Origin: Shigella phage Sf17
DNA: 64,000 bases
Direction: 5' to 3' (one strand)
Sequence record: MF327004
A program made the position numbers and the translations under genes. The notes under the pieces were generated by a model. It searched no databases, was not told the DNA's origin, and worked only from the letters and a program-made list of their open reading frames with translations. Below are positions 970-8,495 of this stretch, piece by piece (position 1 is the stretch's first letter; each line of letters starts with the position of its first letter).

Positions 970-2322
970 ATGTGGAATCCAATTGTTAATGTAGATATTA
1001 CATTGAACACAGCAGGAACTACAAGAGAAGGTTTTGGTTTACCATTATTCCTTGCTTCAACAGATAACTTTGAAGAAAGAATCCGTGGTTATACTTCATT
1101 AACAGAAGTAGCTGAAGACTTTGATGAAAGCACTGCTGCGTATAAAGCTGCAAAACAGCTATGGAGCCAAACTCCAAAAGTAACTCAACTGTATATTGGT
1201 AGAAGAACTATGCAATATACTGTTTCTATTCCCGACACAGTGGCTGAAGGGAGTGAATATTCATTGACAGTTGCTATTGGTGGTGGTGTTTCTCAGCCAT
1301 TCCAGTACACTGCAAAAGAAAGCGACACAGCACTTATTGTCTTGAATGAGTTTAAATCACAGATTGAAGCAAGCCCAACAATTAAAGATGGTGTTAATGT
1401 TAGTGTAACAGGTACTGGTGCTTCTGCGACGATGATTATTACTAAAGCTGGTGATAATGACTTCGTAAAAGTAACGTCTATTACACCTACAACATCTATT
1501 GCAGCAACAACTGCTGACACGGCTTCCGCTGCTCTGGCATCCATTGAAACATATTCAACAGATTGGTACTTCATCTCAGCAGAAGACAGAACTCAACAGT
1601 TTGTCTTAGCAATGGCTTCAGAGATTCAGGCTCGTAAGAAGATTTTCTTCACAGCTAATGCTGACGTTAAGGCTCTGCAAGGCACTGATTTGACCTCTGC
1701 AACAGATGTTCCAGCACAGTTAGCTAAGAGCAAGTACACTCGTACAGTTTGCTTGTGGCATCACACAGCCGAGTTTGACTACCCAGAAATGGCTTACATT
1801 GCATATGGTGCTCCATACGATGCAGGTTCAATTGCTTGGGGTAACGCTCAGTTAACTGGTGTTGCAGCATCCCTACAACCTGCTAACCAGAGACCACTGA
1901 CAAGCATTCAGAAGTCAGCTTTGGATACCCGTAGCTGTAACTTCATTGACCTCGATGGTGGGGTTCCTGTAGTGCGCAGAGGTATCACTTCTGGTGGTGA
2001 ATGGATTGATATTGTACGTGGTGTTGATTGGCTTGAATCTGATTTGAAAACATCTCTGAGAGACTTGCTAATTAATCAGAAGGGTGGTAAGATTACTTAT
2101 GATGATACTGGTATTACCCGTATTCGTCAGGTCATTGAAACATCTCTTCAGCGAGCAGTTAACAGAAACTTTTTGTCAACTTACACCGTTACTGTTCCTA
2201 AAGCCTCACAAGTTGCATTGGCAGATAAGAAAGCACGTATCCTGAAAGACATTACCTTCCACGGTATTCTTGCAGGGGCTATCTTGGATGTTGACTTGAA
2301 AGGCACAGTGGCTTACGAATAA
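970..2322 (+). CDS. putative tail sheath protein
   Basis: 450-aa ORF followed by a ~150-aa tube-like ORF, strong terminator, chaperone pair and tape measure gene: the conserved contractile-tail order; not confirmed by search. Confidence 0.5.
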   Translation: MWNPIVNVDITLNTAGTTREGFGLPLFLASTDNFEERIRGYTSLTEVAEDFDESTAAYKAAKQLWSQTPKVTQLYIGRRTMQYTVSIPDTVAEGSEYSLTVAIGGGVSQPFQYTAKESDTALIVLNEFKSQIEASPTIKDGVNVSVTGTGASATMIITKAGDNDFVKVTSITPTTSIAATTADTASAALASIETYSTDWYFISAEDRTQQFVLAMASEIQARKKIFFTANADVKALQGTDLTSATDVPAQLAKSKYTRTVCLWHHTAEFDYPEMAYIAYGAPYDAGSIAWGNAQLTGVAASLQPANQRPLTSIQKSALDTRSCNFIDLDGGVPVVRRGITSGGEWIDIVRGVDWLESDLKTSLRDLLINQKGGKITYDDTGITRIRQVIETSLQRAVNRNFLSTYTVTVPKASQVALADKKARILKDITFHGILAGAILDVDLKGTVAYE

Positions 2323-2336
2323 AGGAGTAATTAGGA

Positions 2337-2783
2337 ATGGCTATGTATCAGCAATATTCCCCTAAAGATGTAGTTTGTAGCTGGAATGGCATTGCCATTG
2401 AAGGTTTTGCACCAGACTCATTCTTGCGTCTTCAGAGAAACTCTCCACTTGTTACGCAAGTTGTAGGTGCAGGTGGTCAAGTGGCTCTGACAAGAAATGC
2501 AGACAAGACAGGTACGATTGAGATTGAGCTAATGCAGACTTCTCTATCAAACCAGATGCTTTCTGCAATTCAAGCTAAACAAGATGACATGGAACTTGAA
2601 GAAGATATCTCATCTAACTTTGTAATTTACGACCCATCTGGTTCAGTTCTGGCAACAGGTATTAATGCTTGGTTGCAAGAGCTTCCACAGATTGAATTAG
2701 GTCGTGACCAGAACTCGAAAACTTGGATTTTCGGTTGTGAGAAGTTAGACTACACTTCAACAATCCCTGCGTCAAGCGTTTAA
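2337..2783 (+). CDS. putative tail tube protein
   Basis: 148-aa ORF between sheath-like ORF and tail chaperones, followed by a terminator. Confidence 0.5.
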   Translation: MAMYQQYSPKDVVCSWNGIAIEGFAPDSFLRLQRNSPLVTQVVGAGGQVALTRNADKTGTIEIELMQTSLSNQMLSAIQAKQDDMELEEDISSNFVIYDPSGSVLATGINAWLQELPQIELGRDQNSKTWIFGCEKLDYTSTIPASSV

Positions 2784-2796
2784 CAAATCCTAATAA

Positions 2797-2830
2797 GGGG
2801 GAGACTGTAAAAGGTCTTCCCCTTTTGTGT
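2797..2830 (+). terminator. rho-independent terminator after tube gene
   Basis: GGGGGAGAC - 8-nt loop - GTCTTCCCC followed by TTTTGTGTTTTT. Confidence 0.5.
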
Positions 2831-2859
2831 TTTTATAGCATAACTTTTAAGGAATCACA

Positions 2860-3261
2860 ATGAAGACTGAAACTAAAATGATTAACGGCAAGAAGGTAAC
2901 TATTATTCTTCTTGGAGCAAGAGATGGTATCCGTATCTCTATGAAACTTGGTAAAGCAGTTGTACCAGCATTTGCACAGATGTTCTCTGGTTTAACCTCT
3001 AAAGATGGGGAAGCTAAAATCCCATTTAAAGAACTCGTTGAAGCTTGCTTTGAAAAGGTTGACGAACTAGATATTGATGCAATGGCAGAGACACTATTTC
3101 AGGGGGCAACAGTTAACGACTTCCCACTGAAAATTGATAGTTACTTCCAAGCGAACTACGGTGAATTTATTGACTTCTTAGCTTTTGCTTTGGAGGCAAA
3201 CTTCGGAAGTTTTTTCGAGGCAAGCATTTTCAAAAGCCTAACTTCTCAGCAGGAAGCTTAA
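2860..3261 (+). CDS. tail assembly chaperone (G-like, frame-0 product)
   Basis: 133-aa ORF immediately upstream of tape measure gene; carries slippery heptamer T_TTT_TTC about 45 nt before its stop. Confidence 0.5.
   Translation: MKTETKMINGKKVTIILLGARDGIRISMKLGKAVVPAFAQMFSGLTSKDGEAKIPFKELVEACFEKVDELDIDAMAETLFQGATVNDFPLKIDSYFQANYGEFIDFLAFALEANFGSFFEASIFKSLTSQQEA
3210..3216 (+). other. putative -1 programmed ribosomal frameshift site (T TTT TTC)
   Basis: X_XXY_YYZ heptamer in frame 0 of ORF 2860-3261; the -1 frame is stop-free from 3210 through ORF 3270-3497. Confidence 0.5.
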
Positions 3262-3269
3262 GTTATTCT

Positions 3270-3497
3270 ATGCAGACCCCGCTGACTGACGGGGCTGTAA
3301 AGGCAACTTATGATGAAGCAGATGAGATGAAATTTGTGCTTGCTATTTATGGTATGGATGGGTGTAAAGAAACACTCAACCAACTTTTTGATATGACCTT
3401 CGTTGATTTATTATCTCTACGTCAGTATTTAGAAATTCAGAAGTCATATAAAGAAGAAATGGCTTACAACGAACTCAGAAAAGCAGGTAAAATTTAA
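3270..3497 (+). CDS. tail assembly chaperone extension (T-like; probably made as G-T fusion)
   Basis: 75-aa ORF in the -1 frame relative to 2860-3261, open upstream across the slippery site; its stop overlaps the tape measure ATG. Confidence 0.45.
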   Translation: MQTPLTDGAVKATYDEADEMKFVLAIYGMDGCKETLNQLFDMTFVDLLSLRQYLEIQKSYKEEMAYNELRKAGKI

Positions 3498-5733
3498 TGG
3501 CACAATATACAGTTGATAGTTTTATTGTTGAACTTGGATTCAGTGAAAAGGTTGTTAAGGGTTTGCAAAGAGTTGAGAAAATGGCTATGCAGTCTGCTCA
3601 ACGTATCGAACGTAATATCAATAAAGCCTTTGATGTGAAGCCTAATAGAAGTTCACAAGACGCTCTAAACAGACTTGTAAAAAACGCTCAGACTGCTTCA
3701 GGCAGAATCAATAAATCCCTAAACAATGCTATGAATTTAGATTCACAAGGTGTAAAATCACTTCGTAGATTAGAAACACAGGGTAAGAAAACAGCCAAAG
3801 AAATTAATAAGGCTCTAAGACAAGCTATGAATGTTGAAGGTAAAGTCAATGTTCGTGGTGGAGTTGGTAGAGGCCGTGGTAATACTATCCCTCCGGTTGG
3901 AGGTGGTGGTTCACCTAGAGTTAGACCTGATATTGCTCAAAGACAGATGGAAAGAATGTTTAATAACAACTTCTACTCTGGTTTGACTCGTCGTCTTGAA
4001 ACAATTGGTGGACAAGGTAACCAAATGGCTACTTCCTTCAGAGGAAGCTTACAAGGAATCTATAATAAGTACAAAGGTAGTGGTAAAGTTGGTGAGTATG
4101 AGATGGAAGTCAAGAAACTCATTGACACTACCAAACGTTGGGTTATTGCAGAAAATGCTAGACTTAAGGCAGTCAGAGAGTCAGCTTGGTTACAAGACAG
4201 AGCAAACTCTTCACTAAGACAGCTTGTAGGTGGTTTTGTTTCAGCGTATGCTATGCTGGAATTAGCTCAGAAGACTATTGATGCAGGTGTAAAGAGACAG
4301 TCTGCACAGTTAGCCTCAACAGCTATCTTTGGAGGGGATACACAGCAAGCTAGAATGTTCGCTGCTACGTTCTCTCACCAGATTGGTCAGAACTACACAG
4401 ACACTATGAAGCAGTACTCAAACTTCGCTGCTGGTGCTCAACCAGAGTTAGGTTTTAAAGGGACTCAAGAGTTCTATAAGAATGCTGCTATGTTCTCACG
4501 TATTCGTGGTGCTTCTGATGAAGACTTGAAAGGTATCATGGTTGCTTTCCAGCAAATGGCATCTAAAGGTAAGATTCAGGCTGAAGAACTTCGTGGACAG
4601 TTAGGTGACCGTTTGGCAGGTGCTGTTCAGTTATTCTCTGATGCTATTGGTAAAACTCCACAAGAACTTGACAAGATGATGAAAGATGGTCAGCTTCTTG
4701 CTAAAGACGTTCTACCAAAAGTCTCAGAAAAAATGAGAGAGCTTGTTGAAGCAGCAGGTGGTATGAATGCAGTTTCTAAGCAGACAGCCACCTCTATGGG
4801 TCAAGCAAAAGCTATGTGGGATAACACTCTTGTAGCACTTTTCAACAACTCTAGCGAAGGTATTTCACAACTCTCTAACTCAGTTGCAATGTTCTTGCAA
4901 GGTTCCCTTGGTACATCTGAAGCACTTGGTACAGGTATTGGTTACCTTTTAAAAGGTGCTAGTAACCTTCTAGACTTCGTGACAGATATCATGTACCGCA
5001 TTTCTTCATTGTACTATACCTCAATGGGCTATTTCAAGGAATTAGATGCTAGTCAACAGAAACTAATCAAGGATTCTGCTGAGTTAGTTGCTACGTTCAC
5101 CGCTATTGGTGTCTCAATTGCAGCTATTACAAAAGTCGCTAAAATCTTTGGTGGTACTGTAGCATTTGTCAAGAGTATCTTTGAAGAAGGTATCTTAGCT
5201 AAGATTGCACAGAAGTTTGGATTAACTACAGCAGCAGAAACAGCAGCTACAACGGCTGGTGTATCAGCAACCAGAATGGCTCTTGGTGTAGGTGGTTCTG
5301 CATTAATGTTATCTGGTTCAGTTGACAAGAATGCTGGAAAGAGATTTAACGAGGTTAACACACCTAATCCTTTCAATGAAGCTATCTCAGGAATCACTAA
5401 TCCAAAACGTCCAATGTTCTTTGACCAGAATGGACAACTTCAGTTTGCACAATATACCACAGACACTTCTGGAAATATTCAGAGAGTTGATAATGGTTTG
5501 TCAAATTGGGATATTATCATGAACAACCTGTCTGAGTCTCTAAATAACTTTGCAAACAAGTTTAACCAGACACCTATGATGATGACTCCTTCTGGACTAC
5601 CATTGCAAACTAAGCAGACGCTTCACGTTTCCTTTAATCTGGATGGTAAGCAGATTGCTACTAAGATGGTGGATATCACTGATAAGAGTCAGGAAGATAT
5701 TCTGTTAAACTCTAGCTACCCAGAGGATGAATA

Positions 5734-5734
<1 letters not shown>
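3497..5734 (+). CDS. tail tape measure protein
   Basis: 745-aa ORF right after the chaperone pair; long helical-looking N-terminal half rich in A/K/Q/R, Gly-rich segment, hydrophobic C-terminal stretches; typical position and composition. Confidence 0.65.

Positions 5735-8495
<2,761 letters not shown>

What the first reader, a model, noticed from the sequence alone, without database searches (positions are those of the whole stretch)
3183..3497. Canonical -1 frameshift site fusing the two tail-chaperone ORFs upstream of the tape measure gene
ORF 2860-3261 contains T_TTT_TTC (3210-3216) in frame; the -1 frame is open from there through ORF 3270-3497, which ends at the tape measure ATG. This matches the conserved G/GT tail-assembly-chaperone recoding of tailed phages and implies ORF 3270-3497 is mainly expressed as a fusion. 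It supports the tail-module calls.
Basis: partly seen in the sequence, partly recalled or inferred. Interest (0 to 1): 0.5.

Follow-up and report, generated by a model that had tools for sequence, protein, structure and literature searches.

The report
Known tail-chaperone -1 frameshift site
This is the ordinary, widely conserved ribosomal slip site through which a Felix O1-like phage makes a long and a short version of its tail-assembly helper protein; close relatives already carry this annotation, so it confirms the tail-gene calls but is not new.

Summary
T_TTT_TTC lies at 3210-3216 in the codon phase of ORF 2860-3261. The -1 frame is open from 3174 to 3497. Its stop overlaps the tape measure ATG (TAATG).

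The window is a Mooglevirus (Felix O1-like myophage), 99.7% identical here to Shigella phage Sf18. ORF 2860-3261 is a tail assembly chaperone (Pfam Phage_TAC_15, E 7.5e-20). It sits between the tube and tape measure genes.

The heptamer, its phase and the open -1 frame are kept in all 39 related loci examined, about ten lineages down to 45-50% protein identity. Several lineages have no usable start codon for the downstream ORF, so there it can only be made as a fusion.

The predicted product is 212 aa with junction ...GSFF|RGKHFQK....

The same frameshift is already annotated. Mijalis has a joined CDS, the Moogle and Mijalis genome announcements mention it, and UniProt A0A0A0RQ75 (212 aa) matches.

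I found no conserved 3' stimulatory structure. A 5' GGAGG 13 nt upstream is a possible stimulator but is not universal. Efficiency is unknown, and the fusion protein has not been shown experimentally in this phage group.

Verdict: real, ordinary, already known. Interest is low.

The parts
970..2322 (+). Tail sheath gene (context)
   Evidence: phrog_205 tail sheath, E 1.1e-118; Pfam DUF3383
2337..2783 (+). Tail tube gene (context)
   Evidence: Pfam KPP10_Orf10 and phrog_280. Sf14 gp40 is called tail tube in PMC11821841.
2795..2834 (+). Terminator-like hairpin plus T-tract between the tube gene and the chaperone gene
   Evidence: 12-bp stem with TTGTGTTTTT tail. The same position is annotated as a terminator in Mijalis.
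2860..3261 (+). G-like tail assembly chaperone ORF (133 aa), the product of standard decoding
   Evidence: Pfam PF21822 Phage_TAC_15, E 7.5e-20; phrog_1613, E 1.8e-48. The AF2 model (pLDDT 80.8) matches phage tail assembly chaperones in BFVD. AAGGAA lies 5 nt before the ATG.
3192..3196 (+). Internal Shine-Dalgarno-like GGAGG, 13 nt 5' of the heptamer; a possible 5' stimulator (inferred)
   Evidence: Sequence. A 9-14 nt spacing is reported to stimulate -1 shifts (PMC5009743). GGAGG is rare in the window, 30 against 54.6 expected. It is present in 7 lineages and absent in 5.
3210..3216 (+). Slippery heptamer T_TTT_TTC in X_XXY_YYZ phase (Ser-Phe-Phe)
   Evidence: Invariant in all 39 related loci.
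3216..3261 (+). Dual-coding overlap between the shift site and the G stop
   Evidence: 2 of 13 third positions vary here, against 11 of 20 upstream (Fisher p = 0.03). blastn to Erwinia phages matches only 3199-3239.
3216..3497 (+). -1-frame segment (93 codons) added to G residues 1-119 to give the 212-aa G-T fusion
   Evidence: Fusion built. The trans-frame product aligns across seven lineages. UniProt A0A0A0RQ75 from Moogle is 212 aa, 97% identical over 119 columns.
3270..3497 (+). T ORF as usually annotated (75 aa from ATG 3270)
   Evidence: phrog_4963, E 2.4e-51. Annotated as a separate 'putative tape measure chaperone' in Sf18.
3268..3302 (+). Stable hairpin enclosing ATG 3270; its role in recoding is unproven
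   Evidence: dG -17.5 kcal/mol, z -3.45, 0 of 200 shuffles as stable. 90% of cells paired, 3 pairs changed on both sides, 24-51% paired when slid. Not present in all lineages.
3497..5734 (+). Tape measure protein gene; its start overlaps the T stop (TAATG)
   Evidence: Pfam TMP_3; phrog_4036, 1489.6 bits.

Best explanation
This is the G/GT-type tail assembly chaperone recoding site of a Felix O1-like myophage.

Most ribosomes translate 2860-3261 and release the 133-aa chaperone. A minority shift at U_UUU_UUC. With tRNA-Phe on UUU (3211-3213) in the P site and on UUC (3214-3216) in the A site, both tRNAs slip back one base and re-pair with UUU and UUU. Decoding then continues at CGA (3216-3218) in the -1 frame to the TAA at 3495-3497.

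The product is a 212-aa fusion: G residues 1-119 plus 93 -1-frame residues, with junction ...ANFGSFF|RGKHFQKP....

By analogy with lambda gpG and gpGT, the shared G part coats the tape measure protein and the T part recruits the tube protein. The low shift frequency then sets the ratio of the two forms.

What is shown here: the anatomy, the homology and the conservation. What is inferred: the shift itself, its efficiency and the roles of the two domains.
For: - The heptamer is in phase and the -1 frame is open to the tape measure start.
- G belongs to a tail assembly chaperone family. The gene order is sheath, tube, G, T, tape measure.
- The heptamer, its phase and the open -1 frame are kept in all 39 related loci. 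These cover Mooglevirus, Suspvirus, Felixounavirus, Kolesnikvirus, Arno18, a Yersinia P778-like lineage and four metagenomic lineages.
- Neighbouring synonymous sites vary freely (18 of 20 third positions).
- The T segment is conserved as protein upstream of any start codon in several lineages. It has no Met at all in L040.
- The overlap shows reduced synonymous variation.
- In E. coli, U_UU.C is the second most shift-prone tetramer, and UUN and all-pyrimidine heptamers are favoured (PMC4066793).
- The same frameshift is annotated in Mijalis (joined CDS), in the Moogle and Mijalis announcements and as a 212-aa UniProt entry.
Against: - No protein evidence for the fusion exists in this phage group in the literature I could search.
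- U_UUU_UUC alone gives only 0.121% shifting in E. coli reporters, 0.893% with the IS911 stimulators and 7.58% with the IS3 pseudoknot.
- I found no significant or conserved structure 5-9 nt downstream.
- Sf14 particle mass spectrometry reports the T ORF product but not the G product. That is not what a pure fusion predicts.
Confidence: 0.9

Rival explanations
1. The T ORF is made mainly on its own, by initiation at ATG 3270. The heptamer contributes little or nothing in this phage.
For: This window, Suspvirus and Felixounavirus have an ATG near the start of the T segment. GenBank records of the closest relatives list it as a separate CDS. Sf14 particle mass spectrometry detected gp42 (T) but not gp41 (G).
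Against: - The ATG is missing or displaced in the Erwinia-phage lineage, L035, L040-L042 and L028, while the T segment and the heptamer are kept.
- The only SD-like sequence (AGGAAG) lies 13 nt from the ATG.
- The ATG lies in a -17.5 kcal/mol hairpin.
- The 18 -1-frame codons upstream of the ATG are conserved as protein, RxKHFQKP.
Confidence: 0.07
2. The fusion arises by transcriptional slippage. RNA polymerase adds one U in the T6 run, and standard translation of that mRNA gives the same ...GSFFRGK... product.
For: One extra U gives exactly the same protein, so the anatomy alone cannot tell the two mechanisms apart (inference).
Against: Bacterial transcriptional slippage is described for runs of about 9 A or T (PMC5009743). 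The run here is exactly 6 in every lineage and is never longer. The conserved features (Ser-NNT, Phe-TTT) are those that tandem tRNA re-pairing needs.
Confidence: 0.03
3. The heptamer is a chance by-product of a conserved Ser-Phe-Phe motif and the overlap of two genes. No recoding takes place.
For: The SFF peptide is conserved, so the phase follows from it. About 0.32 of such codings would give a heptamer in any one lineage.
Against: The heptamer is invariant in about ten lineages with saturated synonymous sites, roughly 1e-4 for eight independent lineages. It has the longest -1 extension of 51 in-phase heptamers. The T segment lacks a start codon in several lineages yet stays conserved.
Confidence: 0.01

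Closest known systems
[quoted passage not shown]
   Same: Same genus and 93.7% nucleotide identity. Same heptamer, same junction (119 shared residues) and same 212-aa fusion. Annotated as a joined CDS.
   Different: Only a few substitutions. The records closest to this window (Sf18, Sf14 and others) list two separate CDS without the join.
Phage lambda gpG / gpGT (Levin, Hendrix and Casjens 1993; Xu, Hendrix and Duda 2004, 2013, 2014)
   Same: Two ORFs between the major tail gene and the tape measure gene. A -1 shift near the end of the first ORF. A short form and a fused form of a chaperone that is absent from virions (PMC5009743). Felix O1 virion proteomics likewise lacks Gp65 and Gp66.
   Different: Lambda is a siphovirus and uses G_GGA_AAG (from memory). 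I detected no sequence similarity. The heptamer here is U_UUU_UUC (Phe-Phe). The ratio of the two forms is unknown.
Phage P2 gpE / gpE+E' (Christie et al. 2002)
   Same: A contractile-tail phage with sheath, tube, chaperone pair and tape measure in the same order. It uses a U-rich heptamer, T_TTT_TTG (from memory). The -1 shift is reported as 2-3 times more efficient than in lambda.
   Different: A different chaperone family, since I saw no Pfam or sequence link here. The last base is G rather than C, so the A-site tRNA is Leu rather than Phe.
E. coli dnaX and IS911-type -1 frameshift signals
   Same: A heptamer with an internal Shine-Dalgarno-like sequence 9-14 nt upstream. Here GGAGG lies 13 nt upstream.
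   Different: Those signals also have a 3' stem-loop or three-way junction. None was found here, and the GGAGG is not kept in all lineages.

Membership tests
G/GT-type tail assembly chaperone recoding of tailed phages | Two small ORFs located between the major tail (tube) gene and the tape measure gene | tested here: met
   Sheath 970-2322, tube 2337-2783, G 2860-3261, T 3270-3497, tape measure 3497-5734
G/GT-type tail assembly chaperone recoding of tailed phages | The second ORF is in the -1 frame, and that frame is open back across the 3' end of the first ORF | tested here: met
   -1 frame open 3174-3497; 88-nt overlap with G
G/GT-type tail assembly chaperone recoding of tailed phages | A slippery sequence in the correct phase inside the overlap | tested here: met
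   T_TTT_TTC at 3210-3216, 45 nt before the end of the G stop
G/GT-type tail assembly chaperone recoding of tailed phages | The arrangement is conserved in relatives even where the sequence has diverged | tested here: met
   39 of 39 related loci, about ten lineages, down to 45-50% identity in G. PAK_P3 (27% identity) keeps the -1 layout, but the homologous site is GGTTTTTC.
G/GT-type tail assembly chaperone recoding of tailed phages | The first ORF belongs to a tail assembly chaperone protein family | tested here: met
   Pfam PF21822, 72.2 bits against a cut-off of 22. PHROG tail assembly chaperone families. BFVD fold matches to phage tail assembly chaperones at E 1e-4 to 1e-6. No solved-structure relative was found.
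G/GT-type tail assembly chaperone recoding of tailed phages | Both the short and the fused protein are made, in a fixed ratio, and both are needed for tail assembly | not testable with these tools
   No experimental report for Ounavirinae in the searched library. Raw Sf14 data exist (MassIVE MSV000096931).
G/GT-type tail assembly chaperone recoding of tailed phages | The chaperones are absent from mature virions | tested here: inconclusive
   The Felix O1 virion proteome lacks Gp65 and Gp66. Sf14 pelleted particles: gp41 not detected, gp42 detected.
Canonical bacterial -1 programmed frameshift signal | An X_XXY_YYZ heptamer that allows both tRNAs to re-pair | tested here: met
   U_UUU_UUC; both codons are Phe and both -1 codons are UUU
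Canonical bacterial -1 programmed frameshift signal | A stable stem-loop or pseudoknot starting about 5-9 nt 3' of the heptamer | tested here: not met
   The 54-nt and 84-nt folds give z +0.44 and -1.20. The alignment fold gives -0.01 kcal/mol with no covariation. Pseudoknots were checked only by eye.
Canonical bacterial -1 programmed frameshift signal | An internal Shine-Dalgarno-like sequence 9-14 nt 5' of the heptamer | tested here: inconclusive
   GGAGG at 3192-3196 with a 13-nt spacer. It is replaced by GGAAG or others in five lineages that have the same Leu-Glu-Ala residues or different ones.
Programmed transcriptional slippage | A long homopolymer run (about 9 A or T in bacteria) | tested here: not met
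   The run is exactly T6 in all lineages. Run-length requirement from PMC5009743.

The most novel reading that the evidence does not exclude
The Felix O1-group shift site works without a classical 3' structure. Its efficiency would then be set by unusual modulators. Candidates are the nearly invariant 27 nt after the heptamer, the 5' GGAGG, the conserved hairpin 51 nt downstream that also buries the T start codon, and the phage's own tRNA-Phe(GAA), which carries C32 instead of the host's U32 and would decode both slip-site codons late in infection.
Probability: 0.12. Interest if true: 0.4.

Novelty: already known. Interest (0 to 1): 0.12.

Why it matters
It confirms the tail-module gene calls. 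It also shows that records listing two separate 'tape measure chaperone' genes (Sf18, Sf14, Felix O1 and many others) should carry a joined CDS of 212 aa.

Beyond annotation it adds little. The conserved G/GT frameshift has been textbook knowledge since 2004, and this exact site is already annotated in Moogle and Mijalis.

The open points are modest. No one has shown the fusion protein or measured its frequency in this phage group. On its own the heptamer is weak in E. coli reporters.

Tried and rejected
- **3' stimulator.** I folded 54, 84 and 116 nt around and after the heptamer in the window and in three other genera, and folded an eight-lineage alignment. Nothing was significant or conserved. 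A by-eye pseudoknot (AGGC/GCCU plus AAGC/GCUU) is weak and is not kept in Felix O1.
- **Ribosome-collision geometry.** The distance from the heptamer to the G stop varies from 30 to 51 nt among lineages, so I dropped the idea.
- **Sequence search of solved structures with G.** Only chance-level hits. Foldseek against the PDB gave nothing below E 0.001; the best hit was 5ir0 at E 0.25.
- **Protein search with the 212-aa fusion.** It returned only stand-alone G proteins of 123-136 aa and no fusion-length entry. The fusion turned up instead in BFVD.
- **tRNA scan of the window.** No tRNA genes, so the phage tRNA-Phe could not be examined here.
- **Peptide-level Sf14 mass spectrometry data.** Not in the supplements held.
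- **Two other in-phase heptamers whose -1 frame passes the stop (39703 and 19419).** These are ordinary junctions with downstream genes that have their own ATG.

Full report
**What the window is.**
Bases 2300-5800 are 99.7% identical to Shigella phage Sf18 and 99.1-99.5% identical to Sf14, Sf15, Sf16 and Sf19. They are 93.7% identical to Citrobacter phages Moogle and Mijalis. These belong to Mooglevirus in the Ounavirinae, the Felix O1-like myophages.

The genes around the finding form a contractile-tail module:

| Coordinates | Gene |
|---|---|
| 370-969 | tail terminator |
| 970-2322 | sheath |
| 2337-2783 | tube |
| 2860-3261 | Phage_TAC_15 chaperone (Pfam E 7.5e-20; phrog_1613) |
| 3270-3497 | small ORF (phrog_4963, 'tail assembly chaperone') |
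| 3497-5734 | tape measure protein |
| from 5734 | baseplate genes |

**Check of the observation.**
The sequence reads ...GGA AGT TTT TTC GAG... with TTTTTTC at 3210-3216. Position 3210 is the third base of AGT, so the phase is T_TTT_TTC. The -1 frame is open from 3174 to 3497, and the TAA at 3495-3497 overlaps the tape measure ATG.

After a -1 shift the next codon is CGA (3216-3218). The product has 119 + 93 = 212 residues with junction ...ANFGSFF|RGKHFQKPNFSAGSLSYSMQTPL.... Everything else in the finding is right.

**Is it more than chance?**
I made a simple 81-ORF gene set for the window (18,662 codons).
- It contains 51 in-phase XXXYYYZ heptamers. This is the only TTTTTTC. Its -1 extension of 93 codons is the longest; the median is 6.
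- Two other heptamers whose -1 frame passes the stop are ordinary junctions with genes that have their own ATG.
- Of 23 x-Phe-Phe sites, only this one is encoded T_TTT_TTN.

**Comparative evidence.**
I examined 39 related loci: five GenBank phages from different genera, 31 IMG/VR contigs and three contigs carrying more distant homologues.
- In all 39, TTTTTTC is present in the same phase, 30-51 nt before the end of the G stop. In every locus that extends that far, the -1 frame is open to a stop next to the tape measure start; L007 ends at a contig edge with the frame still open.
- The set spans Mooglevirus, two metagenomic lineages at 81-84% identity, Suspvirus, Felixounavirus, Kolesnikvirus and a relative (44-46%), Pectobacterium phage Arno18, a Yersinia P778-like contig (about 50%) and two further lineages (46-50%).
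- Synonymous sites nearby vary freely: 18 of 20 third positions vary across the whole set. The chance of coding Ser-Phe-Phe as a heptamer is about 0.32 per independent lineage, or about 1e-4 for eight lineages.
- In the overlap after the heptamer, synonymous variation is reduced, as expected for dual coding. Two of 13 third positions vary, against 11 of 20 upstream (p = 0.03).
- blastn to the Erwinia phages matches only 3199-3239, which is the slip site plus 23 nt.

**Is T made as a fusion?**
The -1-frame product aligns from the first residue after the shift (R.KHFQKP...) to the end in seven lineages. The start codon, by contrast, is not conserved.

| Lineage | Start codon for the T segment |
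|---|---|
| This window, Suspvirus, Felixounavirus | ATG near the start of the segment |
| Felixounavirus contig L028 | ATA in place of the ATG |
| Arno18 | only a GTG |
| phiEa104 | first ATG about 57 codons after the shift site; the annotated ORF is 37 aa |
| L040 | no Met in all 96 codons |

Gene callers placed no gene between G and the tape measure gene in L040-L042.

In this window the ATG at 3270 has only AGGAAG 13 nt upstream. It also lies inside a hairpin of -17.5 kcal/mol. The fusion is therefore the conserved route. Some stand-alone T cannot be excluded here.

**Mechanism.**
Both slip-site codons are Phe. After the shift both tRNAs face UUU, the classical tandem re-pairing.

Published E. 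coli reporter data (PMC4066793) are relevant:
- U_UU.C is the second most shift-prone tetramer.
- UUN codons and all-pyrimidine heptamers are favoured.
- U_UUU_UUC gave 0.121% shifting alone, 0.893% with the IS911 stimulators and 7.58% with the IS3 pseudoknot.

So context should matter, and I looked for it.
- **3' structure.** Folds of 54-116 nt give z-scores of +0.44 to -1.78. An eight-lineage alignment gives no consensus structure and no covariation.
- **5' side.** GGAGG lies at 3192-3196, 13 nt before the heptamer. That is within the 9-14 nt range reported to stimulate -1 shifts (PMC5009743), and GGAGG is depleted in this genome (30 against 54.6 expected). However, it is GGAAG or another sequence in five lineages, three of which keep the same Leu-Glu-Ala residues. 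It is a possible stimulator, not a universal one.
- **Second site.** A shift-prone tetramer, U_UUC at 3228-3231, lies in the same open -1 window.

Efficiency remains unknown.

**Rival explanations.**
- **Transcriptional slippage** would give the same protein. The run is only T6 in every lineage, whereas bacterial slippage is described for runs of about 9.
- **Independent initiation of T** is argued against by the start-codon data above. Its one support is the Sf14 particle proteome, which lists gp42 (T) as detected and gp41 (G) as not detected. That preparation was a pelleted lysate searched against separate entries. I found no peptide-level data. The Felix O1 virion proteome contains neither protein.
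- **Chance** is excluded by the conservation.

**Comparison with what is known.**
This is the conserved tail assembly chaperone frameshift of long-tailed phages, with lambda gpG/gpGT as the prototype (PMC5009743). Among contractile-tail phages it resembles P2 gpE/E+E'.

The very same site is already annotated:
- Mijalis carries a joined CDS from the G start to the T stop.
- The Moogle and Mijalis genome announcements mention the tape measure chaperone frameshift.
- The best BFVD structural match to my model of G is UniProt A0A0A0RQ75, 'Tape measure chaperone [Citrobacter phage Moogle]'. It is 212 aa and 97% identical over 119 aligned columns. That is exactly the fusion length and junction computed here.

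Other BFVD matches are tail assembly chaperones of unrelated myophages. No solved structure is a clear relative. Many records, including Sf18, Sf14 and Felix O1, still list two separate genes. A protein search with the fusion found only stand-alone G entries.

**Verdict.**
Its value is for annotation: join the two CDS. The remaining gaps are experimental: detecting the fusion, measuring its frequency, and finding what, if anything, stimulates a heptamer that is weak on its own.

Noticed in passing
window 2795-2834: Terminator-like hairpin (12-bp stem, T-rich tail) between the tail tube gene and the chaperone gene. It is annotated as a terminator in Mijalis. It may lower transcription of the chaperone and tape measure genes relative to sheath and tube.
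   Followed up: partly
window 3268-3302: Stable hairpin (-17.5 kcal/mol, z -3.45) lying 51 nt after the heptamer and 6 nt after the G stop, enclosing ATG 3270. It is kept in Mooglevirus, Suspvirus and Felixounavirus with three both-side base-pair changes (90% of cells paired, against 24-51% when slid). It is absent in the Erwinia-phage lineage, L040 and L042. Its function is unknown.
   Followed up: partly
window 3192-3196: GGAGG lies 13 nt upstream of the heptamer. GGAGG is depleted in the whole window (30 matches on both strands against 54.6 expected; every shuffle had at least 30).
   Followed up: partly
window 3228-3231: A second shift-prone tetramer, U_UUC (AUU UUC in the G frame), lies inside the open -1 window. 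A shift there would give a fusion four residues longer in the G part.
   Followed up: no
Sf14 literature (PMC11821841, Table 1); corresponds to window 2860-3497: Particle mass spectrometry lists the T ORF product (gp42) as detected and the G product (gp41) as not detected. This is odd for a pure G-T fusion and for a chaperone expected to be absent from virions. The raw data are public (MSV000096931).
   Followed up: partly
outside the window (Sf14 tRNA cluster; PMC12482277, Table 8): The near-identical phage Sf14 encodes its own tRNA-Phe(GAA), with C instead of the host's U at the first anticodon-loop position. Both slip-site codons are Phe. The window itself has no tRNA genes.
   Followed up: partly
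L039 (Pseudomonas phage PAK_P3) 1474-2102: This remote homologue (27% identity) keeps the -1 layout: 100 codons are open to the tape measure start. At the homologous spot it has GGTTTTTC (Ser-Val-Phe), which is not a canonical heptamer.
   Followed up: partly
model of window 2860-3258 against the PDB: The best solved-structure match is ORF19 of the Vibrio cholerae PICI-like element (5ir0), a protein of unknown function. Probability is 0.96 and TM 0.51-0.65, but E is 0.25. This is a weak hint that it could be chaperone-like.
   Followed up: no
public records of G homologues: Several G homologues carry misleading names: 'head closure protein' (phage C600M2), 'tape-measure protein' (BPSELC-1) and 'putative tape measure protein' (Sf13).
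   Followed up: no
window 39703 (+) and 19419 (-): Two other in-phase heptamers (T_TTA_AAT and G_GGT_TTA) sit just before stops, with long open -1 frames. The downstream ORFs have their own ATG at the junction, so these look like ordinary gene overlaps.
   Followed up: yes
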